Below are positions 39,101 through 57,005 of a stretch of 64,000 nucleotides of DNA, piece by piece. Origin of the DNA: Gammaproteobacteria bacterium (GTDB taxonomy: Bacteria; Pseudomonadota; Gammaproteobacteria; Tethybacterales; CBDBMS01); contig CBDBMS010000003.1 in the NCBI GenBank assembly GCA_965207545.1, positions 285,411 through 349,410 on the forward strand, written 5' to 3'. How positions within the stretch are numbered: position 1 is the first letter of the stretch; the number at the start of each line of letters is the position of its first letter. The notes under the pieces are model-generated. The model ran no database searches and was not told the origin of the DNA. It saw only the letters and a program-made list of their open reading frames with translations. The translations under genes and the position numbers were made by a program.

Positions 39101-42100
39101 TCATGGAAGGGAACACGGATTACCGCTGGAGCTACAGGAGTGGAAATGCACTGGGTTTCGTCACCGCCGACAGTGTTGGAACCGCTCCGCCCGCCGGCGC
39201 GCCGATTCCTTCCCTCTATCTTGACGAGTCCACACGCATCCTCGCACCTGTCGGCGCCACGGTTCGAATTGCCGTAGATGCCGCCGGCGGCGAGCCGGGT
39301 CTTGCGATCAGCACCACTCTCGCGCCGATGCTTCTGAACCGGTATGCCGAGCAGTTGCGCGGCGATTCTCTTTACGTGATGGATTTGGACGCTGCCGACA
39401 GGTTCAGCCTGCCGGCAACGCCGCGGTCCGGCGGCAATCGGATCGACACGATACCGCTGAGGAACCAGCTCATCACCGTATCCCAGGCATTAGATTTTGA
39501 ACGCACCCGACTCATCTTCAACAGCGCCAATGTTTATTCCAGCCCGATTGAAACGACCGCGGACATACTTCTCACTCCTGGCGTTGATTCGATCCAGCCA
39601 GTAATAACGCTCAACTACAGCTTGACACCCTATTCTGACATGCTGCTGACCGGCACGGTCTCCGGTGCGGCGGTCAGCGTGACGGTACCGGCCGGCTCGA
39701 TTGTTGAGGTTGAATCGACACCGAGCGATTTTACGGTGTTGTCGCCAGAGGTGGTTCTGACCCGGACCGAGATCAGGCGCATCGCTCCGCATTTCGGCGG
39801 AGTGAATCTCGATCCTGCGATCATGCTGATCACGGTGTCGGCGGCTGTCTTGCGACAAACTGCGGAGCCTTTCCAAGTGGTGCGGATCAAGCCGGCACGG
39901 GGCGGAGGCTCGGTCAGCCGTGGCCGTTCGAAACTGTATACCCACTACGAGATCATGGGGGTCTTGCGCGAACAGGTGACGGTTCTTTTCGACAGCCCGT
40001 TTGAGCTTGATGCCTACACGTTTGAGCAGGGCGGTGACGCAGTGCGAAGGCTTGTAGTCAACGGCACCTTGGGCATGGATTCACGCATTTATCCGGAGGT
40101 TGCCATACACTTCTGGACCATCGACTTTGGGGTGAGCGACAATATCAATAACCAGCTAGTAGCCCCTCCTAACGTGGAGACCGCAACGCTCTACAGAGAT
40201 ACGTTCTCGGGTGACCAATATCCGGCGATTCCCAAGTACGCCGCCGGAACCGATCCGGGCAACCAGTTTGTGATGCCGGCTGGAACACGGGTTCTGCTGC
40301 CGGGTGCGAGTGCCTACGACTTTGGAACCGGCGAAATCAGTTCGGACCGGATTGTGTTCCTGCCGTCCCCAGTGTATGCAAATCCGGAGCTTGTAAGCAC
40401 AGTGACCATGTACGAGTTCCGCTCGCACCGTCTCGGCAACAATTTCAGTTCGGAGGTTGTGCTGTCGACAGCAACGGGCGAGACGAGCATTGATCTCGCC
40501 CCGCCACTGAGAACCACGCTCAGCGGTCTTGACCTGTTCACACCATCCGGAGGTGCGCTGTTGCGCGAGATTGACGGAGGGGCGATCGATTCCGAATTGG
40601 CAGGGGTGATGGTGACGACGCTGATTGAGGACCTGCCGGCGGGCTCCTGGCTCGACATTGCCGGCGGCAAGGTGCAGTGGCGCGGCACGGATCCGAGCTT
40701 GCCGGTGGAATCGATGCCTTCGGCGCTGGCGACCGTGCTTCGCGACACCCCGATGGTCTATGCCGTTGCGAACGAGTGCCGGCGCACCGCGTATCCGCAC
40801 CGCAGGGACTTCGGTCCCGAGTGCGCCTTGCGCGAGGGCGAAGGCCTCAAAATGAACGTTGCCGCAGGCTCTTGGCTGGATCTTCCGGAGGAGAAGGCGC
40901 TGGCGTCCCGTCGCATGGTGATTCGGGCCACGCCGGGTTCGCTCCTGTCGCCGACGATTTCCGTTTCGGTGCCGGCGTATGACCGGGACGCGATGAGGGA
41001 TGCCACAAGCACCGTCTATAACGACGTTCTTTGGGCGGAGGTGGACATGGGGGCGGCAGAACTCGTGCTGGTCACACTTGAATCGATGGTGCCGACAGGA
41101 ACTACGCTCTCATTCGCTTCATCCGGAACATTCCCGCATCTGCTTGATGCAGTGTTCCACGCTCCGGAACAGGGACTGGAGGTGGTTTACCTGAACGACG
41201 GCCAGAGCCTGTTTTCGGCGCTTTCGATGGCAGTCGACGACGGATACGGCAGTTTGGATTTCGTCAAGGCGCAGGTGACAACGAACCTGACTCTCTATCC
41301 GGGGGGGCAGTTCCAACTGTCGGACGGTTCCCTGTCGCGGGGCCACCGGCTGGTCGAGGTGCCTGCGGACGCGGCAATCACGATGGGTCCGGCAGTTCTG
41401 GTCACCAACGGAGGTCCCAACGCGGAAGGCCTGCTTAGCAACGGGGGCTGGCGTGGCGACATGACGCTTCAGGGTTTCCGTCCGCATCCGGGGAGTTCGT
41501 ACAACCTGACTGTTGACATGATGGGCAATCCTGCCTATGGCTACGACTATGACGGGTTGCCGGTCGTTGAGCGTGCGCCGCTGATCACCAGTACAAGCCA
41601 AGGCAGCCAGTTCCTGGACACCACGGGCAGCTACATGATGAAACCCGGATATGCCTGGAACGGTCTTATCGCCTCAGCGGCAACGATTTCCCTGCAAGAC
41701 ATGACACAGAGCAACTTCCGCACCGAAACGGCCTACCAAAACCGTGGCGGAGTGTTTGTCCGGCGCTATCCCGACTTGGACAGCTTTGCCAGAATGGGTT
41801 CGCACAATGTGATCCAGCTGGATGGCACGACGCGCACAGCCACGCTGCCTCTCCCGACTGTTGCAGTCACCGTATTCGCATCGGGCACCCGGGCGGGCCT
41901 GGAGTTCGATCTGTACGAGGCCGATCCGATCTTGGTGACATTTCACCTGTCCCATCTTTCCGCCGTAACCCTGGACGCCTCAACGCCGTTGCTGATGGAC
42001 GAGCATGGCACGGAGGATTTTCCGGTTGCGCGGAGAATCTACAATCCGAGCAGGCTGGTAGAGCCCTTTGTTGAAGAGGTTGTGTACGAGATTGATCCGG

Positions 42101-45100
42101 ATCTTCTGGCCGTTTATTCCGACAGTGCGTCAGCCCTGGTGACATTCGCGGGTCTCGACTACCAGGACGAGCTGGAGGTGAACTTCCATCCGAGAAGGCG
42201 TTCACGTGCCAGCGGGGTGGGGATGCACGTTTCGCATATGGCGCCCAACTTCTCCAGCCAATCCAACTCAATCGACCTGCTTGCGATGAACGACCTGTCC
42301 ACTATCAGCATTGACGAGGACGTTGCGGATCTGGCTGTGGAGGCAGCCGATTTCCTCCATGCGTACCGCGGTTCGGTGGTTGTCCACGAGCAGACTGCAG
42401 CAGGCTTGAACAGCACGGTGACCGTGTCGCCATTCCAACGTCCCCGCAACACCTACCAGGTGACGATCGGCACCGGCCAGCGGGCTGACGACGGCGCCAT
42501 TGCAAGCGGCGGCGGGCTGTTCGGCCTGCCGGTGCCAAGCGACTATGCAGTTACGGTTTCAGTGTCGCTTCGCGCAGATGTTCCCCAGGCGACGGCTCTT
42601 CCTGCATCGGTTTTTCACGAGGAACACTTCACCACGATACCTGCCAACCTGGAAATAGGCCGCAACGCGTTTTTCTCACTGAACAGAAGGCACGGGATCC
42701 AGACGACGCTGAAGTTCGGCTCCGACTTCACAATAGACGGCTATGCGTCGATCTGGCCGCAGAGTTCGCAGGGCGTTCAGAGCGGCTGGGGCTTTTCCGG
42801 CTTTACGGGGGACGGTTCGTATCAACTTTACTTCGAGAGGATGGCCGCGGAATTTGTGGATGGACCGCCTCCGGAAATCTGGCTCATGTTCCCCGAGCCG
42901 TATGCGAGTCTTCCATCGGCCGACGGCTCCATGATTGACGTCTATGCCGGAAGCATGATCAATCCCGTAACCGGTGAGATCATCCAGGCGCGGCCGTTTC
43001 CGGCAAGGGCTACGCTCACCCTGGGAGGCGGCGGAGCATCCGGCGCCATAGGCGGAACGGATGCAGACACGCCACGTCCGGTTTTGGCCACCCCGTTGGA
43101 TCCGCGGGTTCATCTCTACAACAGCTATAGCCTGCCGGTTGCCGCCGGACAGGCGCAATTTGACCCATTGCTTGTCCGGACGGCAGACGAATGGCAGGAC
43201 ACCATGGGCACAGCGGTGACACCGACCGGAGTCACCTTTTCCGGCGCCGCGGTGGATCCGCTCAGCACGCGTCACATACCACTGTGCTTTGACGACCAGA
43301 GCCGTCTGGCCGAGACGGCCGTACTCGGATGCCAGTCAGTGTTCACCGATGTGGACATGAATCTGCCCAACATGTCTACGCGAATCATTGCCGACCTGGG
43401 AGGGGCAGCCACTAGCACCATTGCCTGGGACGTTTCGAAATCGGAAACTTGGCTGGTGGAGAACGCCGCACATCCGTCCGCTTCGCTTGTGCACCGGGAT
43501 GTACATACCTTGGACGAGCTGTTGCTGAAGACCAGAAACAGAACAAACAGGTCACTTCGAAACGTCACGGAGATCCGGATTCCGGGCAATGAGGAACTCG
43601 TTGTCAACGCCTTCACACAGGCGCCAGAAGGGATTTCCGATTTCCGGTTTCCGTCCGGTTCCTGGGCGCGGGTAGGCGTTCCGGAGGGAACAGGACCGCT
43701 CACCAACCTGTCAGTGGGGATTGGCAACTGGGCATTCCCGAGCAGGGTGAGGCCGATACGCGGCACAATTAACCTTGATGTGGAATACGACGTTGCAATT
43801 GACCCGATAACACTGGACTGCGGGGGTTGCACGGTGACGGAGACAGACGTAACAGTGCCTATTAACGGCGTCGACACAACGATGCCGTCCCTGAGCGTCA
43901 CTGCGCCGCTGTCGCCAACGGAAACCTATGAGGCGAGCTATCCCTATCTGCACTTTACGGGCGCAAACGCGCCTCATCCCACGCTTGGACTGGCCTATCA
44001 GACTCCGATGGCCATAGGCACCCCCATGGTGTCCGGAGGCACATTGGTCGCGGCAACAACGTTGTCGCTGACAACATGGGCGGCATCCATTGCATTCGCA
44101 CCGGTCACCGGAGGAACGGGCGAGCTTCCGCTGAGGGTGTCGAACACTGACGACCGCGACAGGTTCCAGATCGACATGAAGCAGAACTTGTGGATAACTC
44201 TGCAGGACGATGTGGATGTGACCTATACATACCGTGGCGTGGTCACCACCCTGTTTCTTCCCGAAGGCACAATTGTGAATCCGATTGTGGGCACTTACCT
44301 GATTCCGCCCGGCGTGGGAGGTCGGCATGAGCGTCTGGAAAGCAGATCAAGCGCGCTTCTGGTGCCGAAAGGGCATCTGTCACTGACGCGGCCGGGACTG
44401 ATTCTTCCGAAAGGGGCGAGATTCCATGCGGCTCAAGGCGCACAGCTTGAAAACGTTCAGGCGGCGGTGTTTCACAGTCCGTATCCGCTGGAGAACGCCA
44501 AGGGTTGCGCAGTGGCTTCCGCGGCGCCTTTCGACCAGGTCCACGAAGGCGTGGTCCAGGGAGGCGCCACCCGGACAAGCGATCCGGTCTCAAGCGGTCA
44601 CATCTGCACGTATCTTGACACGCCGGAGAACACCGACTTCGACAATGTCTTCGACTACTACAGCGGGTCGCAGCGTTCACGTGGCAGAGTGGACCAGCCG
44701 ATTGACACCAATGACAGGGTCTACGCCCTGGGCGGACGTCTTGTCGGCGCGTTCCTGACCACCGTGTCCGCATCCATAGCGCCGCAGGCGATCACGCCGG
44801 GGCTGACGATCATCACTCCGGCAATTTCAGTGGCTGTGACAACGGCCATCCCGGTCACGACGCTGACACCGGCGGTGGTTCCGTTTGACGGCCCGACACC
44901 TCCGCCACTGGTGCCGCCGGTGCCGCCGGTGGGAGATAAGGAGTTTCTGCCTACCGGCGGAACAATTGTGACACACGACCCTCACCCCGCCGACGGTACG
45001 GAGTCCCAATTCAGTGTCCGCCCCGGGGTCATAATATTCAACAACATACACTTTACTGTTCCTCCCGGATCAGATGGTTATTTGCCGATATCGTTGGTCA

Positions 45101-45405
45101 TCGGTGGCACCTCCAGGTTGGTATCAGGAGTCGACTATAGGATAACCTTTAGGGATTTGCCTGCTACTGACTGTCCGGATTTTGACAGCGCGACTGCTCC
45201 GAAGACCTGTTACTTTTTCGTGCCAGACGACGTAAGTTTTTCCAGAACACTCTCCGACGGAAGAATATTTCACACCATCCAATTAGCTGTATCTTTTAGT
45301 GTACCGACGGTTGATCCAGTCGACCAAGACGTGGAGGTCTCGATAGTACTGTTCCCTGGCACTTCCCAGGAGGTCCGTTATACACTACCATTCAGCTTCA
45401 TATGA
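36124..45405 (+). CDS. giant (3093 aa) prepilin-like surface protein with an atypical Glu5-less N-terminus; first gene of the giant-pilin-like operon
   Basis: Single uninterrupted 9.3-kb ORF. Probable real start at the ATG at 36166 (MSRLPHPARRACRSERG|FIHILLVVLVTFGITVYG): a basic leader, Gly-1, Phe+1 and a ~20-residue hydrophobic helix, but no Glu+5. Shares the post-helix LPCPD motif module with the three downstream paralogues. No other recognisable domains. The 3' ~400 nt are AT-richer. Confidence 0.6.
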   Translation: MSMVHDEQSDSVRKMSRLPHPARRACRSERGFIHILLVVLVTFGITVYGFLPSLEEALISKTRLEHERYSDLFRARDALQKYALLGPDDRGSDRSEMPGVGVRRFLLPCPDLPASGEVFSDGISENSCLGPAGSIDVKRDIDLDLNDDLDSIQATSTKGNFIGFLPSRVANPHDANRPPLGILGETNETNSRNKLIYLVSPNLIRRDRPLNPTSLARRSEDWLELDNVIDSTYSTTDGPVQLEKQSNRIALMIMASGTNTPVCSAESPNSAAQRVGSWVDLFYDSSDRTADCTYPPSYRLDGKQHNRSLSRLSYVSAEQLITGGSADFEDIEVSGRPVNDVVAGNLNGVGVADLLKGYYARYGHYPDPAAFDIVTGAGYLAPLPHISDEPHSDSLYRRGGLSLEGISAMHHMNATVVTVGALVSPQAKRIRVNLPEDIAFDNGSGGAGSILQVPPFNTFQLNPGSHLKLASTDGFIPVNLTLPTETAFRTMATLGFKPLDLTAASGLVTTNVRLQMGSTVTMGNDVAAGRAYRSHHETFLPPGMQVLTESQFLTLFVPNTHLNFGGGVTITQTSIVNFPTDEVVAVEGIDVRVPNSAVVEELLAVQSTGGIMVGAAGQGGVARSFEIEGDVIALGVIPHAASPDVTIDGTTYVNSTTEADLPLLAPLRVSNKGFLPVDHIPDLNVVCASVNVAVVSLVSPGGGCGSPYLPNANVVLAPVESGALRLLLPSDMEFLSFPSEEGHGVMVESFPILNAAARDAAFVPNEAPSAFRMPEADYQVLDGSGVSSFPSALLAGIGVNTALERKPVPISLPAGSQLVMPLSSSTSLTLGKGFDLPFAYAVVPAGTRLPGVLPPGSIRPDGRKVPSVPASDLVEDDILLPRGGIVHFNNHLPDGNRLVLASTSLPNYSDLSIRGEMRNLAFEVVESMAVLYSAGSGVPTRLTLESGCFVMPYRTAWYCEEEVYRIQDSGDFLETVGNSLVEVGIQKTDFHHVMEGNTDYRWSYRSGNALGFVTADSVGTAPPAGAPIPSLYLDESTRILAPVGATVRIAVDAAGGEPGLAISTTLAPMLLNRYAEQLRGDSLYVMDLDAADRFSLPATPRSGGNRIDTIPLRNQLITVSQALDFERTRLIFNSANVYSSPIETTADILLTPGVDSIQPVITLNYSLTPYSDMLLTGTVSGAAVSVTVPAGSIVEVESTPSDFTVLSPEVVLTRTEIRRIAPHFGGVNLDPAIMLITVSAAVLRQTAEPFQVVRIKPARGGGSVSRGRSKLYTHYEIMGVLREQVTVLFDSPFELDAYTFEQGGDAVRRLVVNGTLGMDSRIYPEVAIHFWTIDFGVSDNINNQLVAPPNVETATLYRDTFSGDQYPAIPKYAAGTDPGNQFVMPAGTRVLLPGASAYDFGTGEISSDRIVFLPSPVYANPELVSTVTMYEFRSHRLGNNFSSEVVLSTATGETSIDLAPPLRTTLSGLDLFTPSGGALLREIDGGAIDSELAGVMVTTLIEDLPAGSWLDIAGGKVQWRGTDPSLPVESMPSALATVLRDTPMVYAVANECRRTAYPHRRDFGPECALREGEGLKMNVAAGSWLDLPEEKALASRRMVIRATPGSLLSPTISVSVPAYDRDAMRDATSTVYNDVLWAEVDMGAAELVLVTLESMVPTGTTLSFASSGTFPHLLDAVFHAPEQGLEVVYLNDGQSLFSALSMAVDDGYGSLDFVKAQVTTNLTLYPGGQFQLSDGSLSRGHRLVEVPADAAITMGPAVLVTNGGPNAEGLLSNGGWRGDMTLQGFRPHPGSSYNLTVDMMGNPAYGYDYDGLPVVERAPLITSTSQGSQFLDTTGSYMMKPGYAWNGLIASAATISLQDMTQSNFRTETAYQNRGGVFVRRYPDLDSFARMGSHNVIQLDGTTRTATLPLPTVAVTVFASGTRAGLEFDLYEADPILVTFHLSHLSAVTLDASTPLLMDEHGTEDFPVARRIYNPSRLVEPFVEEVVYEIDPDLLAVYSDSASALVTFAGLDYQDELEVNFHPRRRSRASGVGMHVSHMAPNFSSQSNSIDLLAMNDLSTISIDEDVADLAVEAADFLHAYRGSVVVHEQTAAGLNSTVTVSPFQRPRNTYQVTIGTGQRADDGAIASGGGLFGLPVPSDYAVTVSVSLRADVPQATALPASVFHEEHFTTIPANLEIGRNAFFSLNRRHGIQTTLKFGSDFTIDGYASIWPQSSQGVQSGWGFSGFTGDGSYQLYFERMAAEFVDGPPPEIWLMFPEPYASLPSADGSMIDVYAGSMINPVTGEIIQARPFPARATLTLGGGGASGAIGGTDADTPRPVLATPLDPRVHLYNSYSLPVAAGQAQFDPLLVRTADEWQDTMGTAVTPTGVTFSGAAVDPLSTRHIPLCFDDQSRLAETAVLGCQSVFTDVDMNLPNMSTRIIADLGGAATSTIAWDVSKSETWLVENAAHPSASLVHRDVHTLDELLLKTRNRTNRSLRNVTEIRIPGNEELVVNAFTQAPEGISDFRFPSGSWARVGVPEGTGPLTNLSVGIGNWAFPSRVRPIRGTINLDVEYDVAIDPITLDCGGCTVTETDVTVPINGVDTTMPSLSVTAPLSPTETYEASYPYLHFTGANAPHPTLGLAYQTPMAIGTPMVSGGTLVAATTLSLTTWAASIAFAPVTGGTGELPLRVSNTDDRDRFQIDMKQNLWITLQDDVDVTYTYRGVVTTLFLPEGTIVNPIVGTYLIPPGVGGRHERLESRSSALLVPKGHLSLTRPGLILPKGARFHAAQGAQLENVQAAVFHSPYPLENAKGCAVASAAPFDQVHEGVVQGGATRTSDPVSSGHICTYLDTPENTDFDNVFDYYSGSQRSRGRVDQPIDTNDRVYALGGRLVGAFLTTVSASIAPQAITPGLTIITPAISVAVTTAIPVTTLTPAVVPFDGPTPPPLVPPVPPVGDKEFLPTGGTIVTHDPHPADGTESQFSVRPGVIIFNNIHFTVPPGSDGYLPISLVIGGTSRLVSGVDYRITFRDLPATDCPDFDSATAPKTCYFFVPDDVSFSRTLSDGRIFHTIQLAVSFSVPTVDPVDQDVEVSIVLFPGTSQEVRYTLPFSFI

Positions 45406-46982
45406 GTAAGGCTGGCCAGGGAACGTCCATGAACCGGAGCGGGAGCCTCCGTGCCGTTGCGCGGCCGCGTGGCGTCCGAGGCTACTCGATTGTGGAGCTG
45501 ACGATTGTGCTGGTGGCGGGTGCGCTTCTGGCGAGCGGACCCATTCTTCTGATCCAAAACAAGGTTCTTCAGGACAACTATGATTCGGTGGCGCGCCAAT
45601 TGGAAGTGATCAGGTTCAACGTGGCTGACTATGCGGCATCACACCGGACGGTTGAGCGCCACGTCGAGGTGGCCGGCACCGTTCATGCACTGCCGGGAGG
45701 GCGCCCCTATCTGCCGTGTCCGGACGTGACGGGTGACGGCATTGAGGATCGCATGGGCCTGACCATTCCACAGACAGTCACGGTTGCGCCCGGCGCTGCC
45801 ATAGGAAGCGCCGAAGGGCAATGCGTGAGCAGCCTGGGCTGGCTTCCGCATGCGACCCTGGGCAGCCAGCCGGCCGATCCCTGGGGGAACCGCCTTGTCT
45901 ACCGTGTGGACATGGTGATGTCCAATGCGTTGGTTGGCTTCGGTCCCGGACAGCGTGCCGGCTCCTACGATCTGGCGGGCTTGGTGAGAAGCAATGCCTC
46001 GGGCCCCCCCTCGTATCCGCTTCTTTCGGCTCGGGGAGGGACCGCCTTGTATCTGCCTCCGGTAATCTGCGTTGGCGGCTATCCCGCCACCGACAACGAC
46101 CATTCCTGTCCCAATGGCGACTACAAGGGCAGTGTTGTTCCGGCGGGGGCTTCAATAGGTCTAACGCTGGCATCATGGTCGGACATCAGCGGACTGCCGG
46201 AAGTGTACAGCACGGTTGATTCGGGTTCCTATTCGATGTCAGTTCACGACGGTCTTGCATTTGTCATCCTCTCCCCCGGACGGCACTATAGGCCTCCCTT
46301 ATATCAACAAGCCGAGGTTGGAACGGCGGTAGCCGGTGTGTGTACGAGATCAACGAGCGCCCAGGGAGCGGCTGGGATTGAGAACTCAGACACCTACAAC
46401 TATAATCAGCTTCATGGCAGCCTGTGCGGCACGCGTTCGACCGCATCCCCTCTGTTCTACCTGCCCCTGCGGCCTAATGCGTATGCCGCGTATGAATCGG
46501 AGAGTGACGGATCGAGCGCTAGCGACGACCAGGCTGCCTGGATGTCGACAGGGGAGCTGATGGGTCTGCTTGACGACCTGGCAGTCTTTCCCGTCAGCGC
46601 ATTTCCGGTGATTCCGGGATCAGCGTCAGTTCTGACAGGGCAGGGCGTTTCGGTCTCGGCGTCGCCGGCGACTGTCACGTTGCAGCCTGGCGTTGCATCA
46701 GCCGTGACACTTAATGCCAGTGCGGCGGCCACCTTGGCGCTGGATCTCCCGGGCAGTGATTCGGTCTACCACTTTCTCATGGATGTCGCAGGAACAACCG
46801 TCACGGTCTGTACGAGTCTGCTGACCTGTGAGTTGAACCTGTCCAGCGGCGACACCGAACTGAGCATTCTTTCCAGTGGCACAGTCACGGCAGAGATAAC
46901 CCTTTCTGGCGGCGGAAAGCTGGTGCTTGCCCGTCAGCCCCTGCCAACCAGCATAGCCGTTCCATGGGCGCCCTCGCCATGA
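45402..46982 (+). CDS. large (526 aa) type IV prepilin-like protein (class III signal peptide)
   Basis: ATGA overlap with the upstream gene. The N-terminus ...RGVRG|YSIVELTIVLVAGALLASG has Gly-1, Glu+5 and a hydrophobic alpha1 helix. GRPYLPCPDVTGDGIEDR and WGNRLVYRV motifs shared with the paralogues. Confidence 0.65.
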   Translation: MSKAGQGTSMNRSGSLRAVARPRGVRGYSIVELTIVLVAGALLASGPILLIQNKVLQDNYDSVARQLEVIRFNVADYAASHRTVERHVEVAGTVHALPGGRPYLPCPDVTGDGIEDRMGLTIPQTVTVAPGAAIGSAEGQCVSSLGWLPHATLGSQPADPWGNRLVYRVDMVMSNALVGFGPGQRAGSYDLAGLVRSNASGPPSYPLLSARGGTALYLPPVICVGGYPATDNDHSCPNGDYKGSVVPAGASIGLTLASWSDISGLPEVYSTVDSGSYSMSVHDGLAFVILSPGRHYRPPLYQQAEVGTAVAGVCTRSTSAQGAAGIENSDTYNYNQLHGSLCGTRSTASPLFYLPLRPNAYAAYESESDGSSASDDQAAWMSTGELMGLLDDLAVFPVSAFPVIPGSASVLTGQGVSVSASPATVTLQPGVASAVTLNASAAATLALDLPGSDSVYHFLMDVAGTTVTVCTSLLTCELNLSSGDTELSILSSGTVTAEITLSGGGKLVLARQPLPTSIAVPWAPSP

Positions 46983-49900
46983 GAGATTGCGTCAGCAGAT
47001 TCAGCCGGTCTTTCCGAACCGGACGAAAAGGTGCGGACTGTCCCGGGTTCCGTACACGCGCGGGCGGCTTCACGATCGTGGAGATGGCGATCGTGCTTGT
47101 GGTGCTGGGCCTGCTTCTGAGTTCGGCCTTGACTCCTCTGCGGCACCGCTGGGAGAACGGGAAGTACGAAGATGAACGGGAGAGGATCGAGCAGCGTCGC
47201 CAGGCGTTGGTTGCGTATGCTACGCAGAACCGGACGGAAGAGCGTACCGTTGTGCTTGAAGACCTGGGCTGGAGCTACACGATCCCGGCGGGACGTCCCT
47301 ATCTGCCGTGTCCGGACATTGACGGCGATGGTCTTGAAGACCGGCTGGCGACGAGTGGACTTCCTGATTCTGGGACTGCAATCACTCTTGAAAGCGCATC
47401 AAATTTCCGGGGGATTGCGGCGGCCGGGGGATGCCAGCACTACCAAGGACTGTTCCCGTGGGGTTCGGTTGGCACTGAAGCGAATGACACTTGGGGGCGT
47501 CTCTACATCTACCGTGTACATCCGTCGTTCAGCAACAATGTGTCGGGTTTCGATCACCTGACAAGAGCGGACGTCTACGACGAGACGTCAGGCCTGGTCG
47601 TCAGCACGGTGACGGTTAACTATGCCGGCAAGGATCTGGTTCCGACCTCGGCCATCTCCAACGACAGCATCAGGTTTCTCTACAACACCGAACTGAGCGA
47701 CCAGGCCACGGTGACAGTGACAACCTATCAGAGTCTCTACGAATCGACAGCGACAACCACGACAGCGACGATTAACGGCGTAACGGCAGTGCTGGTTCAT
47801 GACGAGCGTCCATTTGGCGTCTGTGCGCCGGGGGTGAGGGCGGCGGCCGGAGCGACAGTTACAATGAGTGCGCACTGTCCCGATGCCGATGCGGTGGCCG
47901 GCGTGGCGCTTACGATGAGCACTGCGAGCAACGTGGTCGAGTTCGACCCTCCACGCACAGGGATCAGCGGGCCGCTCCTCGTTCGCGCCTACATGGGGAG
48001 CGACAACGGAGCGGATGCCGACGACATCCCCAGGAGTTTCAAGGAGGGGGTCGTGTTCGGAGTGGTGTCGACCGGACAGAACGGCTACGGCGGCTTTGTC
48101 CGGAATGCAGCCGGAGGCCTGGCGTGTGGCAGTCATCCTGTTCCCGACGAGCCGTCGCCGGAGGTGATGCATTTGAGTCTGCTAAAAAACGTGAGCGGTC
48201 ACTGCAGCACATTGCCTACCAGCTACGCCCCCCATTATGAAGGAAACCTGTACTATCTGCCGCGCACCGAGCCGACAACTTTCGAAGCGGACTCGGAAAC
48301 AAGCTCACCTGTTGGCTTTGATGACGTGATTGGCTGGATGGGGCCAGATGAGTTCGTCGGAAAGCTGGCTCGGCAGGATGTGTTTCCAGTTGAAATGTAT
48401 CCGTACATAGGACTTCCGCTCGATTCGACAACCGTTGCAATGTCGGTGGCGCCGGCACTGGGGGTTGACTACACCGGAGCTCCGGGTTCCTCTGTGACGA
48501 TTGACCCTGCGCGTGATGCATCGGGGAGTGCCCGCTTTGTGGGCAGGACGGATCCGCCGCTGCCGCTGTCGGATGGCACGACGATTTCCCTGACGGTACA
48601 GGTGGACCAGGAAGACGGAAACACGACCCAGGTTCCATTCCGGTTCGACACCGAGGATGTGACCCTGACGCTGGAAGCAACCGGCGCCCCGTGCGTGGAC
48701 GACATGGACACCCCCTTGCCTGAGATAACGGGTGGTGACAGCTGTCTGATCTCGGTAACAGGCCGCGTGCCGGCGGATATTCTGCTGAGCGTGACCGGGG
48801 TGACGGTGGATGACTTTGTCAATGCAGCGGCAACCATCCAGATGGTGCCCTTTATCGGCACAAGCCCGACGGTGTCGCTAGCTCATCCTTCCGTCGCGAT
48901 CCTGACGCCGAACAGCGCGGCCGGCAGCATTGTGTTTGCCCCCTCGGACGTGTTCTACACACCGGCGGTTGCGCCAGGTTTGGAGATGCTGGCGACATTG
49001 CAGGCTCTGTACATACCTGAGGCCGACGGAGTGCCGCAGACGCTGACACTGGAGGCGGCGTCCATTCCGGCAGGCGTGACACTGACGCTGGGAGGAGTGC
49101 CGTCATGCATCTCCGTCGGCGTGAACATGTGCGAGTATCGGTTCGGCGGCATGACGACAGAATTTGATGCGACACTTTCTGCCCAGGATCTAACCACGGC
49201 CGCGTCCTTCTCGGTTACAGTGGCTGGCGGGGGTGCGGTTCTGACGATCCGCACCCGCACAGCGCCATTCGTCGATGAATTCAGGGTTCTTGGCGGATCG
49301 GCGGCGACAACCTATTTTCGCACAGGAGCCCCCGTGCTGAAGCGTTTTGCACTCAAGGGGGGCGGTCTTCAGCCTCTGGAGCGGCTTACGGTGACGGTCT
49401 CGATCAGCAGCAACAGGATGACTTCGTCGGAGAAGTTCATCAATACGGACATCAGTGTCGCAACGCCGGAGGCGGAGTGCTACGACAATGTGATGGTGCC
49501 GCCTGTACAGGCAACGATGGTTGGACACGGCGACCACTGCGTATTCGAACTGACTGGAAGCAACGAGGCGCGGTTTCTTCTGCGGCTGAACGAACTGCGG
49601 CCTGAGCTGATCACCCTGACGACCACGCCAACGGGCTTGGAGCTGGCCCTTCGGGAAACGACGTCCACTGCGCCCGGAGTGTATTTCGATCCGAGGGTGC
49701 TTCCGTACATCACCGCGACGCCCACGCCTGGAGCAACAAGGCTGGCCGGAGCCACACTTCATGTGTCCACAGGAACCGGAGCCGCCCCGTCAAGTGACTT
49801 TGTGTTCACGCTGACCTCGGCACCGCCGAGTCCGATCGTGCTGGCTGCCGCATTTGCCGCCGGTGTGACGCCGTCAACCTGCAGTTTTTCCGGTGGGACG

Positions 49901-52900
49901 ACACTGTGCGCGCTGACTGTGGCGTCGACTTCGTTACCGAGCGGAACCTATGAGACGGATGTTACGGTTGATCTGACAAGCGTTCAGGAGTTGGTGTCAG
50001 CGGGTACGCCAACGCTTACGATTCTCTGGGAAGCCCATCCGGTGCTTCTGACGCGTCCTATTCCCAACACCAACCCCTATCTCTCTTTCCTGCCGGACAC
50101 AGCATCGTTTCCCGCGGCTGTGAATCCGGAGAACCGACCCTTCGGTCTTGTGACCATGGACTATGGAAACTTGGCAGGCAACCGGGACATTACGCTAAGT
50201 GCAACCGGTTTGCCGGCGCTGGCGGCGCTGACGCTAGAGGAGGGAGTACTGACGCCTTTGACTTGCCGGATCACTGCCGGGACGCCTTGCACTGTCAGTG
50301 TCGCGAACGATCTTGGCGCTGTCGTGTTTATGGGCTCGATCGAGAACGCCCATGTGCTTTCCGCCGGAGACACAGTGACAGTTCAATGGAACGGCAATGA
50401 CGTTCTGGAAGTGGAGGCTCTCCCGGCTCAGCCGCTCAATGTTGTGGGAAGTCCCGCCACGGTTCGCTATGCGCCAACACCGCCTGGCCGCGGAATTCTG
50501 CAGGCGTTCGAGAGAGTGACCGTCGATTACTCCCCTGTCGACCCTGCGCTGACGTCCATCACGTTGGCAATCACCGCAAGCGGTTTGCAGACCGGCAACT
50601 CGCTTTCCGGCGATCCGATGCTCCCGGGTCAGAATGTCCAGTTCACCCCGGCAGCCAGTGTGCAGCCTGTCACATTGACGACCACCACTCCCGGCGATTT
50701 TACGTTCAGCCTAAACCTGACGCTTGCACCGAACCGTTTGGAGACAGGTTCGACAATGGCGCTGTCGGCGGAAGGCCTCCCGTTTCTCTCGATTCAACCG
50801 GCGACGCTAGGTTTCATGCCGGCGTCAGTAGGCTACGTCAACGCACCTGGAGGAATGAGGTCTCTTTTCGATGTCAACCTGATCTACAGCGGCAACGTCA
50901 GCGCAGCCGTGGCCAATGTGTTCCTGGAGCATGAGGGCTTTGATTTTCCTCAGGCTTCAGACCGGTTCCTGCTCTCGCTGAACACGACTCCTCCGGAGAC
51001 GTGCGACCTGCACAGGAATGCACCTGCGACATGTGACTGGACTTTCCCGCTGACAGGCGGCATGGCCAACATTCCAGTCGACGTCAGCCAATTCAGCGAC
51101 ATTGGGGGCGGTACCGCGTATCTGAAGTACCGCGGGGTAACCGTGCTTACCTTTATGCCTGCCATGCCAACGCTCAGTATTTCCCCAAACATGGCAACAT
51201 TTGATTCACTATTGGATGGTGCTCAACCAGCCATAGCAAGATTTTCCTATAGCCAGGGCCATCCAGGCGCGTTAGCTACGGACGTCACATTGACAGTAAG
51301 CGGGATAAGAGCCGGGAATTCTCATGTTCTACAGGCTACCGGCATCAACTGTTTTTTGGGCGCTGACGGTGAATGCGCATTCAGTTTTACGACTGGGTCC
51401 GACGGGACATACAATCTTGATCCCTTCGCCGTGACGCAATTTGATCGTGACTCTCAAGGTCCCCACCCGATTACAGTCAGCTGGAACGGCCAGGAGATTT
51501 TTGTGTGGACACCCATCCCGCCGTCGATCTCTGCCAATCCCGACAGATTTCAATTTAGGGCGGGTACGTCAGGGAACAACAGCGATCGTGTTAGCCCTCC
51601 TGTCACAGTCACGTATTCTTCACGCGATGTTAACTTATCAGAGGCCGTTCTCACCGTCACTGCATCCGGCCTTGCGAGCGGAGCCACCATCGCGATGGAC
51701 TTGGACATCATGCCGGCACAGTCATGCAGTTTCACTCGCGTTGCGGCCGAATGTGTTGTCACCTTGGAGAGTCCGTCGTCGACTGGGGAGTTCGAGCAGG
51801 AGTTGAGGACCACACTGGAGAACCCTGTTGCCCAGGGAGACGCCAATATGACGCTCTCAACGATAGACACCGACTTCTACATATTGGCACCCGCCTCTGT
51901 GACGCTCGGCTTTGCCCCCAACAGTGGACTGTTTGATCAACTGGGTATTGGGAGGCGCGACCACAGACCGGCATTTTCCTATAGCCAGGGTCTTCCAGGT
52001 GCGTCAAATACGACCGTCACATTGACAGTGAGCGGGCTGATGGGCACAGGTAATGGCTTAAATATGGACGTTGGTACCAATAGTTGCTCCCTGGGCCAGC
52101 TGATTGGCACTTTTGAGTGTGAACTCACTTTCACAACTCAAGCTGACGGGACGTTCAGTGCGAGCAGCCTGCTTAGGCTTCTCAGAGTTCAAGATCAAGA
52201 TGGCAACCCGGTCACAATCAGCTGGGACGGCCAGGAGGTTTTCGTGTTCGAACCGACACCGCCGTCGATCTCTGCCAGTCCCGACAGCTCTGCGTTTACG
52301 CCGACAGCCACTCCTCAGGTTTTCCGTTCCGTGCTCTCTTACGCTTCGCGTGACACCGGCTTGTCAAGAGCCACGATTACTGTCACTGCATCCGGCTTGC
52401 AGACTAACGTCACGGTTAGGTCGCGCTTCGACACCTCTCCAAGGCGAACATGCGACTTCACCACTGTTGCATCCCAATGCGTTCTCACATTGAGCGGACC
52501 GGATAGCTCCGGAACCTTCGATCATGAGATGACGGTCACATTGAGAAATCCTGATGACCAAGGCCAGTCCAATGTGACGCTCTCATGGGAAGACAATGAC
52601 TTCTACACCCTTTCGGTTCCAATGTCGTTGCTTAGCTTTACTCCCCGCGGGTTGTTGTTCCCCTTCAACGTAGAAGCTGTCAGAATTGCTGGTTTCTACA
52701 ACCAGAGACCTCCTGCATTTAGCTACTACACATCCAGTGGTGCAGGAACTTATGATGTCACGCTGGCCGAAAGCGGATTACAAACCGGCAACCAAATTTT
52801 CTTAAATTTGGACAGGTTCGGCGTTGATGAGTGCTCTCTAGTCGAAGATGGTACCTGCTCGTTCGCCGTTACCGTTGGTGCCAACAATTTTGCTAGCTTC

Positions 52901-53809: not shown

Positions 53810-55248
53810 TGAAGCGGGCCACATCACCGGCAACAGGTTCAGGTGCGGGCAGTCGCAGCGCCTTTGGTTTCTTCCGGATCGGTCTTGGTCCGTCGAGTTC
53901 CCATACTGTGGGTCCGATGCGTGCGGCCCGTGACTTCTGTGTTGATCTGCGTGACAAGGGCGTTCTGGAGAGCGTATCGCGCGTCCAGGCGTTTCTGCAT
54001 GGTTCGCTGGCGGCGACCGGAGTGGGACATGGCACCGATCGCGCCGTAGTTCTCGGCCTCTCAGGCGAAGTCCCCGAGGAAGTTGATCCGGTTGCGGCGG
54101 TGGAACTCGTGGAATCGGTTCGTGCACAAGGGAGAATCAGGCTTCTTGGTGTCCATGAGGTCGAGTTTGACATGTCGAAAGACATTGTCATGATCCGCCG
54201 TCCGTTGCCAACCCATCCGAACGGAATGGTTTTCGAGGCGGCGGATGCCTCTGACAGGAAATTGGGCAAGGCTGAACGCTATTCGGTTGGCGGCGGGTTT
54301 GTTACTGGTCCTGAAGATTCCGCCGGAGAGGAACAGGAAAACGTTGAATATCCATATCCTTTTGGCACCGGTGTGGAGCTTCTTGCAATGTGTGCACGGA
54401 AGGGCCTATCGGTGTCGGAGCTGATGATGGCGAATGAATGTGCACAAGGACTCGATGAGAGCGAAGTCCGTGCAGGACTGCTTGCCGTCTGGAATGCGAT
54501 GGTTGCTTGCATAGATGCGGGTTGTTCGAACAGTGGGATCCTTCCGGGTGGTCTTAGGGTGCGTCGCCGCGCACCGGATCTGTATGCGCAGCTGAAGACG
54601 GAGCACGGCTCGAACACCGACGACCTGCATATCTTGGACTGGGTTAACCTCTATGCGTTGGCGGTGAACGAAGAGAATGCGGCTGGCGGCCGCGTGGTGA
54701 CCGCACCGACAAATGGTGCGGCTGGGGTGGTTCCAGCGGTGTTGCGCTACTTTTCGGACTTTCGCGTTGCTAGGGCAGGACGTTGCATGGAGGACGAAAT
54801 AGTGTCGTTTCTGCTTGCTGCCGCGGCGGTGTGCGTCCTGTTCAAGCGCAATGCATCAATATCAGGAGCCGAGGTCGGATGCCAGGGCGAGATTGGTTCG
54901 GCATGTGCAATGGCTGCTGCGGGTTTGACGGAGGTTTCCGGCGGCACGCCGGAACAGGTGGAGAATGCCGCTGAAATAGGGCTTGAGCACAATCTTGGCC
55001 TAACTTGTGATCCGGTTGGAGGGCTTGTACAGATCCCGTGCATAGAGCGTAATGCTCAGGCGGCCGTCAAGGCGATCAATGCTTCCCGCATAGCGTTGCG
55101 TGGCGATGGCACACATCAGGTCTCGCTGGACCAGGTGATCAAGACAATGTGGAACACCGGACAGGACATGAAGCTTAAGTACAAGGAGACCGCTCGCGGA
55201 GGACTGGCTGCTACGGTTAAAATACCAGTGAATGTGGTTGAATGTTAG
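53806..55248 (+). CDS. sdaA: L-serine dehydratase (iron-sulfur, single-chain)
   Basis: [19 protein letters not shown]...[33 protein letters not shown]...[26 protein letters not shown]...[22 protein letters not shown] is collinear with SdaA. Start and stop both overlap the flanking prepilin-like genes. Confidence 0.88.
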
Positions 55249-56979: not shown

Positions 56980-57005
56980 CCCCCCCCCCCCCCCCCCCCC
57001 CCCCC
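56980..57005 (+). repeat. homopolymeric poly(C) tract, 26 nt
   Basis: Uninterrupted C26 in the AT-rich intergenic region. It lies ~15 nt downstream of a TAGAAT hexamer and ~255 nt upstream of the first in-frame ATG of the tandem-repeat adhesin gene. Confidence 0.85.

What the first reader, a model, noticed from the sequence alone, without database searches (positions are those of the whole stretch)
45702..45752. Conserved Cys-Pro-Asp / DxDGDG acidic loop right after the pilin helix in all four paralogues (possible Ca2+-binding site)
- The same short module recurs ~75-90 residues after the cleavage site in each protein: GRPYLPCPDVTGDGIEDR (526 aa, nt 45702-45752), GRPYLPCPDIDGDGLEDR (2281 aa, nt 47294-47344), NRPYLPCPDYNSDGIENR (512 aa, nt 55563-55613). 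A degenerate copy, RRFLLPCPDLPASGEVFSDG, is in the 3093-aa protein (nt 36430-36489).
- The D-x-[DN]-x-DG-x-E arrangement is the classic calcium-coordinating loop pattern (EF-hand-like, also used by PilY1-type adhesins).
- The invariant Cys may pair with a downstream Cys, as in the pilin D-region. A conserved metal site at the base of the globular domain would be a defining feature of this family.
Basis: seen in the sequence. Interest (0 to 1): 0.5.

Follow-up and report, generated by a model that had tools for sequence, protein, structure and literature searches.

The report
Disulfide-clamped calcium-type loop in pilin-like proteins
Four neighbouring pilus-subunit-like proteins of a sponge-symbiont-type bacterium, two of them giant, share a strictly conserved acidic loop closed by two cysteines; it looks like the calcium-binding loop of bacterial thrombospondin-type repeats and defines a so far undescribed pilin family, but metal binding is only predicted.

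Summary
The motif RPYLPCPD-x-[DNT]-x-DG-[IL]-E-[DN]-R lies at the stated coordinates in three paralogues. A degenerate copy lies in the 3093-aa protein.

- **Conservation:** the motif is the most conserved block of the globular part of an uncharacterised type IV pilin-like family (441 clusters at E<=1e-3). In 145 of 147 representatives it reads D1-x-[DTNS]3-G-D5-G6-hydrophobic-E8-[DN]9-R10. The preceding Cys and one downstream Cys are invariant in the 44-sequence alignment.
- **Closest solved match:** the only solved protein with a similar segment is the thrombospondin-type-3-like repeat of a bacterial OmpA protein (5WTL, CPDTDGDGIPDKDDxCP). Both cysteines align, and that repeat is reported to bind calcium in a disulfide-dependent way.
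- **My reading:** a disulfide-clamped structural Ca2+ site of the Dx[DN]xDG class. It is not a canonical EF-hand and not a pilin D-region disulfide. Binding is inferred, not shown.
- **Context:** free-living relatives always follow an MSHA-type pilus operon. The relatives closest to the window proteins (Tethybacterales sponge symbionts) have one giant plus three smaller paralogues and no machinery nearby.

The parts
45402..46982 (+). 526-aa pilin-like paralogue. The prepilin-type N-terminus reads G27|YSIVE (Glu5). The pilin-like module covers residues 25-406 and is followed by a C-terminal beta-rich extension of about 120 aa.
   Evidence: ORF and translation. The family HMM spans residues 25-406. 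In the AlphaFold2 model, helix 30-80 and the core have pLDDT above 90. The protein is identical to database protein P0045 from a 1,583,133-bp contig.
45699..45752 (+). The finding itself: GRPYLPCPDVTGDGIEDR. Putative Ca2+ loop D108-V-T-G-D112-G113-I-E115-D116-R117.
   Evidence: Translation. In 44 family sequences P105, C106, P107 and G113 are invariant, and Y103, L104, D108, D112 and E115 are at least 90% conserved. The segment is a non-helical loop with block pLDDT 96 and 91.
45717..45824 (+). Segment from the Cys106 codon (45717-45719) to the Cys141 codon (45822-45824). This is the predicted disulfide that closes the loop.
   Evidence: Both Cys are invariant in alignments A3 and A4. Both Cys align to the two Cys of the 5WTL repeat unit. 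The disulfide is inferred and was not observed.
46964..53809 (+). 2281-aa pilin-like paralogue. N-terminus G35|FTIVE (Glu5). The pilin-like module covers residues 32-482, followed by about 1800 aa with no recognisable domain.
   Evidence: The protein is identical to P0050.
47291..47344 (+). Motif copy GRPYLPCPDIDGDGLEDR, with strict DxDxDG. Cys116 is at 47309-47311 and the partner candidate Cys157 at 47432-47434.
55242..56780 (+). 512-aa pilin-like paralogue. N-terminus G21|YSLVE (Glu5). The pilin-like module spans residues 18-511 with large insertions.
   Evidence: TIGR02532 scores 19 bits against a cut-off of 16.3. The family HMM covers residues 18-511.
55560..55613 (+). Motif copy NRPYLPCPDYNSDGIENR (D-x-N-x-D-G). 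Cys113 is at 55578-55580 and the partner candidate Cys184 at 55791-55793.
36124..45405 (+). 3093-aa pilin-like protein. N-terminus G31|FIHIL, with Leu instead of Glu at position 5. Only the N-terminal half of the family module (residues 28-214) is detectable. A more likely start codon is the ATG at 36166.
   Evidence: In relatives the giant orthologue also has a hydrophobic residue at position 5.
36430..36507 (+). Degenerate copy RRFLLPCPDLPASGEVFSDGISENSC. LPCPD and a 'DG-I-x-E' remnant are kept, with four extra residues, so the DxDxDG spacing is lost. Cys109 is at 36448-36450 and Cys128 at 36505-36507 (C-x18-C, like the compact family members).
   Evidence: Giant orthologues in L010, L012-L014, L016 and L017 are similarly degenerate.
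53806..55248 (+). L-serine dehydratase gene lying inside the cluster. Its start overlaps the stop of the 2281-aa gene and its stop overlaps the start of the 512-aa gene. It belongs to the operon but not to the family.
   Evidence: Pfam SDH_alpha 1.1e-87 and SDH_beta 1.5e-53. A serine-dehydratase-like ORF (judged from its N-terminal sequence only) sits at the same position in relative L008.

Best explanation
The motif is a structural divalent-cation site, most likely for Ca2+, of the Dx[DN]xDG loop class.

**Proposed site (inferred).** It is built as a single thrombospondin-type-3-like unit, C-P-D-x-[DNT]-G-D-G-[ILVY]-E-[DN]-R...C, inserted in the alpha-beta loop of a type IV pilin / pseudopilin-like head domain. 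The side chains at positions 1, 3, 5 and 9 (D108, T110, D112, D116 in the 526-aa protein) and the backbone carbonyl at position 7 would hold the ion. Gly6 allows the turn. The invariant Cys pair (C106-C141) staples the loop shut. The invariant Glu8 and Arg10 either complete the coordination sphere or lock the loop by a salt bridge. The bound ion would rigidify the segment that packs against the C-terminal half of the pilin helix. It would thereby stabilise the folded subunit outside the cytoplasm, as the C-terminal Ca2+ site does for GspG/PulG.

**Carriers (partly shown).** The proteins that carry the loop are dedicated pilin-like subunits of an MSHA-type pilus system. In this window they form a four-member set. 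One is a giant subunit without Glu5 and with a degenerate loop, probably the tip subunit. The other three have Glu5 and intact loops.

**Shown:** motif, conservation, loop conformation in the models, pilin fold, genomic association.

**Inferred:** metal binding, the disulfide, the stabilising role and the tip arrangement.
For: 1. **Ligand positions are conserved.** In 145 of 147 cluster representatives at most 50% identical to each other, D1 is 100%, position 3 is D/T/N/S in 144 of 145, D5 is 143/145 (N in 2), G6 is 100% and position 9 is D/N in 100%. Positions 2 and 7 vary. The same picture holds in 89 of 101 instances from genomes. These are the positions that PMC3123361 names as Ca2+ ligands in Dx[DN]xDG loops, which occur in many non-EF-hand contexts.
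2. **The Cys pair is invariant.** Both flanking Cys are invariant in 44 sequences. The spacing is C-x15-18-C in compact members.
3. **One solved protein matches.** It is 5wtl_A, an OmpA-family protein with the repeats GCPDTDGDGIPDKDDxCP. The single-sequence search gives E 4.1e-07. The profile search gives E 0.0025 and aligns both Cys. [quoted passage not shown] 2017, Cell Calcium 66:78, cited in PMC12045341).
4. **The models show a loop.** AlphaFold2 gives a confident non-helical loop directly after helix 1 (pLDDT 91-96 in the window protein; block pLDDT 90-93 in the compact homologue P0010, whose whole model has pLDDT 87.8 and pTM 0.81).
6. **The peptide is under selection.** The three DNA copies differ at synonymous sites.
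7. **The pilin context is consistent.** The N-termini match pilin helices of solved pilins. Every free-living homologue with enough flank lies directly downstream of MshL-secretin / MshE / T2SSF / three small genes.
Against: - No metal was modelled or measured. Coordinates of the models were not available, so neither the ligand geometry nor the Cys-Cys distance could be checked.
- The invariant Glu8 and Arg10 are not explained by the EF-hand or TSP3 paradigm, and position 12 is not acidic.
- Six of 101 instances (Thiobacillaceae type, PCPDRREGPQANDGVEDR or PCPDKMTTAGAGTANDGVEDR) carry insertions that break the D1-D5 spacing but keep DG-x-E-D-R. Two distant members (P0041, P0043) keep only LPCP and the Cys.
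- The Pfam models TSP_3, TSP3_bac, EF-hand and related families do not score the loop even at E<=10.
- The per-repeat E-values against 5WTL are only 0.6-10. The match is short and may be convergent.
- The 526-aa copy has Thr at position 3.
- The conservation figures come from the best-scoring 150 hits of a profile that contains the motif, which biases them upward.
Confidence: 0.6

Rival explanations
1. The loop is metal-free and serves as an interface. The disulfide-stapled acidic loop is rigidified internally (Glu8-Arg10 and other salt bridges). It would be the docking surface between the paralogous subunits of a minor-pilin complex, or between the subunit and the assembly platform. The resemblance to calcium loops would be incidental.
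For: - Glu8 and Arg10 are as invariant as the putative ligands (145/145), which a pure Ca2+ site does not require.
- Variants with insertions that destroy the DxDxDG spacing still keep DG-x-E-D-R.
- In pilins the alpha-beta loop is a known subunit-subunit contact region (established knowledge of type IV pilus structures).
- No Ca-binding Pfam family scores the loop.
Against: - The pattern of which positions are conserved (1, 3, 5, 6, 9) and which are free (2, 7) is the signature of the Ca2+ loop.
- Position 3 is restricted to the oxygen donors D/N/T/S.
- The closest solved match is a repeat type reported to bind Ca2+.
Confidence: 0.25
2. The loop is a functional (adhesive or sensing) calcium site rather than a structural one. 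Ca2+ would switch the conformation of the subunit and control pilus assembly and retraction or binding to a host matrix ligand. PilY1 does this with its two Ca2+ sites. Alternatively the loop would mimic host thrombospondin-type repeats in the sponge matrix.
For: - In PilY1, nine-residue D-x-[DN]-x-D-x-x-x-D sites govern pilus biogenesis and integrin binding (PMC3248442).
- The closest relatives of the window proteins are from sponge symbionts.
- The motif resembles a matrix-protein repeat.
Against: - The same loop is present, in even more canonical form, in compact free-living relatives from Thiobacillus-type bacteria. It is therefore not a symbiosis-specific acquisition.
- It sits at the base of the head next to helix 1, not on the C-terminal extensions where an adhesive function would be expected.
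- The giant candidate tip protein is the one member in which the loop is degenerate.
Confidence: 0.12
3. The motif is a chance or compositional match, or the residue of recent gene conversion among paralogues, and has no function of its own.
For: The motif is short and rich in D and G. The paralogues lie next to each other.
Against: - It occurs only at homologous positions, against a shuffle expectation of 0-0.17.
- The copies differ at synonymous sites.
- It is near-invariant in representatives at most 50% identical to each other, from several bacterial lineages.
Confidence: 0.02

Closest known systems
Bacterial thrombospondin type-3-like repeats (TT3R) of OmpA-family proteins (PDB 5WTL; Pfam TSP_3 / TSP3_bac; Dai et al. 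2017 Cell Calcium 66:78)
   Same: The core C-P-D-T-D-G-D-G-I-x-D is nearly identical. A basic residue follows at position 10. A second Cys lies 15-19 residues after the first, and both Cys align. That repeat type is reported to bind Ca2+ in a disulfide-dependent way (title cited).
   Different: The pilin family has a single unit embedded in a pilin head, not a tandem array linking a barrel to an OmpA domain. Position 8 is Glu instead of Pro. The acidic position 12 is missing. The loop is 2-4 residues longer in compact members and 18-55 residues longer in the window paralogues. The Pfam TSP_3 and TSP3_bac models do not score it.
Dx[DN]xDG calcium-binding loop class (Rigden and Galperin; PMC3123361), which includes EF-hands and the Excalibur domain
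   Same: D1, [DN]3, D5, G6 and an oxygen donor at position 9 are present. The loop occurs without a helix-loop-helix frame, as in many members of this class.
   Different: Thr is frequent at position 3. Glu at 8 and Arg at 10 are invariant. The hydrophobic residue is at position 7 rather than 8. There is no Glu12 and no exiting helix, so it is not an EF-hand. The comparison with Excalibur rests on my memory of that domain's DxDxDGxxCE motif and was not tested.
GspG / PulG / EpsG major pseudopilins of type II secretion
   Different: The GspG Ca2+ site is near the C-terminus and has no disulfide. Here the loop lies in the alpha-beta region and is Cys-bracketed. TIGR01710 matches only the N-terminal helix (13.9-18.7 bits against a cut-off of 88.85). 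hhalign finds only the helix. Foldseek finds nothing significant. The proteins here are 230-3093 aa against about 140 aa.
PilY1 calcium sites (P. aeruginosa residues 851-859 and 600-608)
   Same: Both are pilus-associated. The spacing of oxygen donors at positions 1, 3, 5, 7 and 9 is the same, with position 9 acting as the last side-chain ligand (plus my own knowledge of Orans et al. 2010).
   Different: PilY1 is not a pilin. It has no prepilin N-terminus, and its characterised 851-859 site lies in the crystallised C-terminal domain with no flanking disulfide. No homology was detected.
GspK-type tip minor pilins and modular pilins (TcpB, CofB, S. sanguinis PilB/PilC)
   Same: In a set of four pilin-like proteins, only the largest has a hydrophobic residue at position 5. 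This is the signature of the first (tip) subunit (PMC5207764). Extra modules are grafted behind a pilin module.
   Different: All four proteins are paralogues of one family, not GspH/I/J/K-like. Sizes of 2281 and 3093 aa are far above described modular pilins. No machinery or major pilin lies nearby.

Membership tests
Type IV pilin-like proteins (prepilin-type N-terminal cleavage/methylation domain) | N-terminal G|[FY]xxxE motif followed by a hydrophobic helix of about 20 residues, recognised by TIGR02532 / PF07963 | tested here: met
   - 512-aa protein: TIGR02532 19.0 bits against a cut-off of 16.3.
- 2281-aa protein: 14.7 bits, below the cut-off.
- 526-aa protein: no HMM hit, but the sequence reads G|YSIVELTIVLV.
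- The family profile matches the N-terminal helices of solved pilins (E 2e-7 to 1e-4).
- 3093-aa protein: G|FIHILLVVLV, without Glu5.
Type IV pilin-like proteins (prepilin-type N-terminal cleavage/methylation domain) | Pilin fold: a long N-terminal helix packed on a beta-sheet head | tested here: met
Type IV pilin-like proteins (prepilin-type N-terminal cleavage/methylation domain) | Encoded with, and assembled by, a type IV filament machine (prepilin peptidase, ATPase, platform, secretin) | tested here: inconclusive
   Free-living homologues always lie downstream of MshL-type secretin, MshE-type ATPase and T2SSF. Neither the 64-kb window nor 15 symbiont-type loci (L004-L018) contain any of these genes. 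The rest of the genome could not be searched.
Dx[DN]xDG calcium-binding loops | Sequence D-x-[DN]-x-D-G in a loop | tested here: met
   The 2281-aa protein has DIDGDG and the 512-aa protein has DYNSDG, both met. The 526-aa protein has DVTGDG, with Thr at position 3. This is outside the strict expression, which the authors say does not cover all true sites. The 3093-aa protein does not meet it..
Dx[DN]xDG calcium-binding loops | Demonstrated coordination of Ca2+ by positions 1, 3, 5, 7 (carbonyl) and 9 | not testable with these tools
Biochemistry or a structure is needed.
Canonical EF-hand | Helix-loop-helix frame with a hydrophobic residue at position 8 and a bidentate Glu at position 12 | tested here: not met
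   DSSP shows no helix after the loop, and the only adjacent helix is the long pilin helix ending about six residues upstream in P0010. Position 8 is Glu in 145/145 representatives. Position 12 was tabulated only on the smaller set, where it is variable (A, G, P, T; for position 8). There is no Pfam EF-hand hit.
Thrombospondin type 3 repeat (Pfam TSP_3, TSP3_bac) | Match to the family HMMs | tested here: not met
   A single 5WTL unit scores TSP_3 at E 5e-4 to 1.5e-3 and TSP3_bac at E 0.014-0.021. The loop segments and whole family members give no hit at E<=10.
Thrombospondin type 3 repeat (Pfam TSP_3, TSP3_bac) | Core C-P-D-x-D-G-D-G-I-x-D bracketed by two Cys | tested here: met
   phmmer gives E 4.1e-07 and the profile search gives E 0.0025 against 5wtl_A, the only clear PDB hit. 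Both Cys align. Per-unit E-values are only 0.6-10.
GspG major pseudopilin (TIGR01710) | Full-length HMM match and a C-terminal Ca2+ site | tested here: not met
   The HMM covers only the N-terminal helix, at 13.9-18.7 bits against 88.85. hhalign also finds only the helix. The S-x-G-x-N-G ... D-D-x-x-x-W blocks resemble the GspG C-terminal region by eye only.
Pilin D-region disulfide | A Cys pair enclosing the C-terminal segment of the pilin head | tested here: not met
   The invariant pair C106/C141 lies 26-61 residues after the end of helix 1, in a module that extends to about residue 406. In compact members it is C71/C87 of 234 residues.

The most novel reading that the evidence does not exclude
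The four paralogues are the subunits of a calcium-dependent tip complex or short fibre. Genome-reduced sponge symbionts (Tethybacterales) would use it as their host-attachment organelle. A 3093-aa subunit without Glu5 sits at the tip. Three Glu5 subunits lie beneath it, one of which carries a further 1800-aa module. Each of the three is locked by a thrombospondin-like, disulfide-clamped Ca2+ loop. These would be by far the largest pilin-anchored proteins known, and a minor-pilin set built from one duplicated family instead of GspH/I/J/K-type proteins.
Probability: 0.25. Interest if true: 0.7.

Novelty: new variant of a known kind. Interest (0 to 1): 0.5.

Why it matters
**For pilus biology.** Calcium sites and disulfides are the two known ways in which pilins and pseudopilins stabilise their heads outside the cytoplasm. 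If the site is confirmed, this family would combine both in one small loop placed in the alpha-beta region. The loop is built like a thrombospondin-type repeat unit. That would be a further structural context for the Dx[DN]xDG loop and a simple sequence signature ([LF]PCPD-x-[DNT]-G-DG-x-E-[DN]-R) for an uncharacterised pilin family tied to a particular MSHA-type machine.

**For sponge symbiosis.** The relatives with this gene arrangement are genome-reduced symbionts. The cluster takes about 1.2% of the 1.58-Mb contig (19.2 kb of coding sequence). It is conserved as 'one giant plus three' across several Tethybacterales genera. It is not mentioned in the papers on these bacteria that I could search. 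It is therefore a candidate host-interaction structure that has been overlooked.

Tried and rejected
- **Family libraries.** Pfam and NCBIfam on the four proteins gave only weak N-terminal pilin hits and nothing for the giant parts.
- **Calcium-motif families.** Pfam on the isolated loop segments at E<=10 gave no EF-hand, Excalibur, TSP_3, FG-GAP or dockerin hit.
- **Foldseek.** The 526-aa model against PDB gave only weak hits (E>=0.046) of its low-confidence C-terminal part to beta-sandwich domains such as the C. perfringens enterotoxin C-terminal domain and the ColG collagen-binding domain. I judged these unreliable. The compact model against PDB gave nothing below E 0.95.
- **AlphaFold database.** The Foldseek library for it was not available.
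- **GspG comparison.** hhalign of the family against a real E. coli GspG aligned only the N-terminal helix.
- **Plasmids.** tblastn of a compact member against plasmids gave no match.
- **Source record.** Exact look-up of the window's 526-aa protein and of P0001 found no record with DNA. The rest of the source genome could therefore not be inspected for pilD, mshE or a secretin.
- **Internal repeats.** BLAST among the four proteins found no internal repeats and no shared extension modules.
- **Literature.** The Tethybacterales papers searched do not mention pili or secretion systems. The Dai et al. 2017 paper itself is not held, so only its title could be used.
- **Gene conversion.** This reading was rejected on synonymous differences.
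Full report
**1. The observation**

- 45702-45752: RPYLPCPDVTGDGIEDR
- 47294-47344: RPYLPCPDIDGDGLEDR
- 55563-55613: RPYLPCPDYNSDGIENR
- 36430-36489: RRFLLPCPDLPASGEVFSDG

The host ORFs are 36124-45405 (3093 aa), 45402-46982 (526 aa), 46964-53809 (2281 aa) and 55242-56780 (512 aa). All are on the + strand and their start and stop codons overlap. The overlaps include a serine dehydratase gene (53806-55248) that sits between the third and fourth pilin-like genes.

The motif begins 74-87 residues after the putative cleavage Gly.

In the six-frame translation of the whole window, D-x-[DNTS]-x-D-G-x-x-[DNE] occurs three times, exactly in these three proteins. Shuffled sequence gives 0.17 on average.

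The three DNA copies differ at many synonymous positions. The peptide is therefore maintained by selection and was not copied by recent gene conversion.

**2. What the proteins are**

Sequence evidence:
- Three of the four have a prepilin-type N-terminus with Glu5: G|YSIVE, G|FTIVE and G|YSLVE. The 3093-aa protein has G|FIHIL, with Leu at position 5.
- Pfam and NCBIfam recognise only this N-terminus, and weakly.
- A family profile matches solved structures only along the pilin helix.

Structure prediction:
- For the 526-aa protein, AlphaFold2 gives a confident helix 30-80 and core (pLDDT above 90 for residues 30-120 and 140-180). The inserted segments have low confidence.
- For a compact 234-aa homologue (P0010), the whole model is good (pLDDT 87.8, pTM 0.81).
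- A sensitive HMM comparison with a real E. coli GspG finds, besides the helix, the short block D-x-W-G-N-x-x-x-Y.

I conclude that the head is a divergent pilin fold, nearest to GspG, and not a member of any curated family.

The family HMM shows how the window proteins are built:
- The complete module spans residues 25-406 of the 526-aa protein, 32-482 of the 2281-aa protein and 18-511 of the 512-aa protein.
- The 2281-aa protein therefore carries about 1800 further residues behind a pilin module.
- In the 3093-aa protein only the N-terminal half of the module is detectable.

**3. The family and its conservation**

A word-indexed search found 43 relatives. Most are 230-280 aa proteins that their sources name only 'type II secretion system protein' or prepilin-type protein.

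An exhaustive HMM search used a profile that excludes the pilin helix. It found 441 cluster representatives at E<=1e-3 and 173 at E<=1e-10 among 1.84 billion.

In the 44-sequence alignment (526-aa numbering):
- P105, C106, P107, G113 and C141 are invariant.
- Y103, L104, D108, D112 and E115 are at least 90% conserved.

Among the 147 best representatives, which are at most 50% identical to each other, 145 have the canonical spacing:

| Position | Residue | Frequency |
|---|---|---|
| 1 | D | 100% |
| 3 | D/T/N/S | 144 of 145 |
| 4 | G | 87% |
| 5 | D | 143 (N in 2) |
| 6 | G | 100% |
| 7 | hydrophobic or aromatic | most |
| 8 | E | 100% |
| 9 | D/N | 100% |
| 10 | R | 100% |

These are the best hits of a profile that contains the motif, so the figures are somewhat biased upward. 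An independent tally of 101 non-redundant instances from genome loci gives the same picture in 89 of them.

The exceptions are informative:
- Six members have insertions between PCPD and DG, for example PCPDRREGPQANDGVEDR.
- A few have GNG in place of GDG.
- Two distant members keep only LPCP and the cysteines.
- The giant orthologues keep LPCP(D) but have a degenerate loop.

**4. Is it a loop, and what does it resemble?**

In both models the motif is non-helical, with only isolated bridge residues, and confident (block pLDDT 96 and 91; 93, 93 and 90). In the compact member it begins six residues after the end of helix 1, so it lies in the alpha-beta loop region of the pilin head.

The conserved positions 1, 3, 5, 6 and 9 are those that define the Dx[DN]xDG calcium loop. 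That loop is known in many structural contexts besides EF-hands (PMC3123361).

It is not a canonical EF-hand. No helix follows the loop, position 8 is an invariant Glu rather than a hydrophobic residue, and position 12 is not acidic.

I searched all PDB sequences with the 26-residue loop of a compact member. This returned a single protein, 5wtl_A, an OmpA-family protein with tandem units GCPDTDGDGIPDKDDxCP (E 4.1e-07 for the chain; 0.6-10 per unit). A profile of 25 loop segments returned the same protein (E 0.0025) and aligned both cysteines. The only other rows were two chance-level hits at E 2-3.

These units are thrombospondin-type-3-like repeats. A single unit scores Pfam TSP_3 and TSP3_bac, whereas the pilin family does not.

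[quoted passage not shown] 2017, as cited in PMC12045341). The link between this paper and entry 5WTL is from memory. The paper is not held, so I rely on its title only.

In compact family members the two cysteines are 16-19 residues apart and enclose the whole motif. In the window paralogues the same pair is 35-71 residues apart because of insertions after the motif.

**5. Mechanism**

My best-supported reading has several steps:
- The loop is a structural Ca2+ site of the Dx[DN]xDG / TSP3 type, stapled by the C106-C141 disulfide.
- It rigidifies the alpha-beta loop against helix 1.
- It thereby stabilises the subunit in the periplasm or outside the cell. This is analogous in purpose to the C-terminal Ca2+ site that stabilises GspG/PulG/OutG in place of the disulfide of type IVa pilins (PMC13081927).

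The motif, its conservation, the loop state and the fold are shown. Ion binding, the disulfide and the stabilising role are inferred.

The main rival is a metal-free acidic interface loop. It draws on the unexplained invariance of Glu8 and Arg10 and on the insertion variants. A regulatory or adhesive Ca2+ site of the PilY1 kind (PMC3248442) is less likely. The loop is equally present in free-living relatives. It sits at the base of the head. It is degenerate precisely in the giant protein that I take to be the tip subunit.

**6. Genomic context**

Every free-living-type homologue with enough flank lies directly downstream of one conserved operon. These come from Thiobacillus and other Thiobacillaceae, Hydrogenophilales, Burkholderiales and a Hyphomicrobiaceae MAG, plus 21 metagenome loci. 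The operon encodes:
- an MshM-like AAA protein;
- a secretin best matching the MshL model (2.6e-74, 249.9 bits, just under the 250.2-bit cut-off);
- a TPR protein;
- an ATPase with the MshE N-terminal c-di-GMP domain;
- a T2SSF platform protein;
- three small unannotated proteins.

A GspG-like 213-aa pilin is often found nearby. The family is thus a dedicated pilin-like component of an MSHA-type system.

The closest relatives of the window proteins (34-41% identity) are from Tethybacterales sponge symbionts: AqS2, Ca. Persebacter, Ca. Tethybacter, Ca. Amphirhobacter and Ca. Zeuxoniibacter. The window proteins themselves are identical to database proteins from a 1,583,133-bp contig.

In these symbionts the arrangement is one giant protein plus three paralogues:
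[quoted passage not shown] - One relative (L008) also has a serine-dehydratase-like ORF (judged from its N-terminal sequence) at the same place.

None of 15 such loci (L004-L018), nor the 64-kb window, contains any machinery gene.

Ng et al. describe a set of four or five minor pilins in which only the largest lacks Glu5 as the signature of the first, tip-forming subunit (PMC5207764). That fits this cluster. Here, however, all members are paralogues of one family, and two of them are far larger than any described modular pilin. I could not establish whether the source genome has a machine to assemble them.

**7. Comparison and novelty**

- At the level of the loop, this is a new structural context and a sequence variant (Glu8, Arg10, no acidic position 12, single unit) of a known calcium-loop type.
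- At the level of the protein, it is an uncharacterised pilin family with no curated model for its head domain.
- I found no description of it in the searchable literature.

I rate it a new variant of a known kind, of moderate interest for the motif alone. Interest would be higher if the four-paralogue giant-pilin cluster proves to be a symbiont surface organelle.

Noticed in passing
window 57258-64000 (+), runs off the window end: One open reading frame of at least 2247 aa with a signal-peptide-like N-terminus (MRMHYLVQCVLVMILLIFPNALTQE). From 57721 it consists of 18.6 tandem copies of a 339-bp (113-aa) unit at 87% identity. GC is 0.74 here against about 0.60 elsewhere. By eye the repeat (…VTVTGVDDEIDDGDVAYEIDLSV…) looks like a Calx-beta-type adhesin domain. 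It is a second giant surface protein next to the pilin-like cluster.
   Followed up: partly
window 56980-57005: A run of 26 C lies in the intergenic region between the 512-aa pilin-like gene and the giant repeat gene. It could be a slipped-strand phase-variation tract or a long-read assembly artefact.
   Followed up: no
window 53806-55248; L008 8554-9969: An L-serine dehydratase gene (SDH_alpha 1.1e-87, SDH_beta 1.5e-53) is embedded in the pilin-like operon, and its start and stop overlap the neighbouring genes. A serine-dehydratase-like ORF (judged from its N-terminal sequence only) sits at the same position in a related symbiont chromosome. Why a metabolic gene is kept inside this cluster is unexplained.
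   Followed up: partly
window 36214-36231 (3093-aa protein residues 31-36): The giant protein has G|FIHIL, with Leu at position 5, while the other three have Glu5. The giant orthologues in L012 and L013 also have a hydrophobic residue at position 5. This is the published signature of the tip-forming minor pilin (PMC5207764).
   Followed up: partly
window 46254-46274 and 46524-46544 (526-aa residues ~285-291 and 375-381); P0010 residues 158-167 and 211-217: The family also keeps the blocks V-V-L-S-H-G-x-N-G and [FY]-D-D-[LI]-x-x-W (S291, G293, N295, G296, D375, D376 and W380 are at least 90% conserved). By eye these resemble the GspG C-terminal region (TLGADG…ADIGNW) that forms the known Ca2+ site. 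This may be a second, GspG-type metal site split by an insertion of about 40 residues.
   Followed up: no
L022, L023, L027 (PCPDRREGPQANDG[VE]EDR and PCPDQRSGPHAGDGLEDR); L002/L003/L051 (PCPDKMTTAGAGTANDGVEDR); L019, L026 (PCPDQTGGDGIEDR and PCPDRAGEDGIEDR): These are natural variants with 1-7 extra residues between PCPD and DG. The insertion breaks the D1-D5 spacing but keeps DG-x-E-D-R and both Cys. They are a ready-made test of the ligand assignment.
   Followed up: no
L002 8540-9985: In one free-living locus a 481-aa protein lies directly upstream of the compact family member. It also carries GYLPCPDIDGRDLSNN behind a hydrophobic N-terminus without the G-F-x-x-x-E signature. It may be the free-living counterpart of the symbionts' giant subunit.
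   Followed up: no
window 46667-46979 (526-aa residues ~423-526): The C-terminal extension of about 120 aa in the 526-aa protein is predicted as a beta-sandwich at low confidence (pLDDT 33-53). Foldseek gives weak matches (E 0.05-0.2) to the C. perfringens enterotoxin C-terminal domain and the ColG collagen-binding domain. This is too weak to interpret.
   Followed up: partly
database proteins P0001 (176 aa) and P0044 (167 aa) against window 45402-46982: The protein collection holds truncated products of this gene on the same 1,583,133-bp contig next to the full 526-aa product. P0001 ends ...MVMSNC where the window reads ...MVMSNALVGF. This points to differing gene calls or assembly versions of the source genome.
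   Followed up: no
window 36124-45405 and 48410-53806: About 2900 aa of the 3093-aa protein and about 1800 aa of the 2281-aa protein have no Pfam or NCBIfam domain at E<=0.1, no internal repeats by BLAST and very low Lys content (1.1% and 0.5% over the whole proteins). They are large blocks of sequence of unknown fold.
   Followed up: partly
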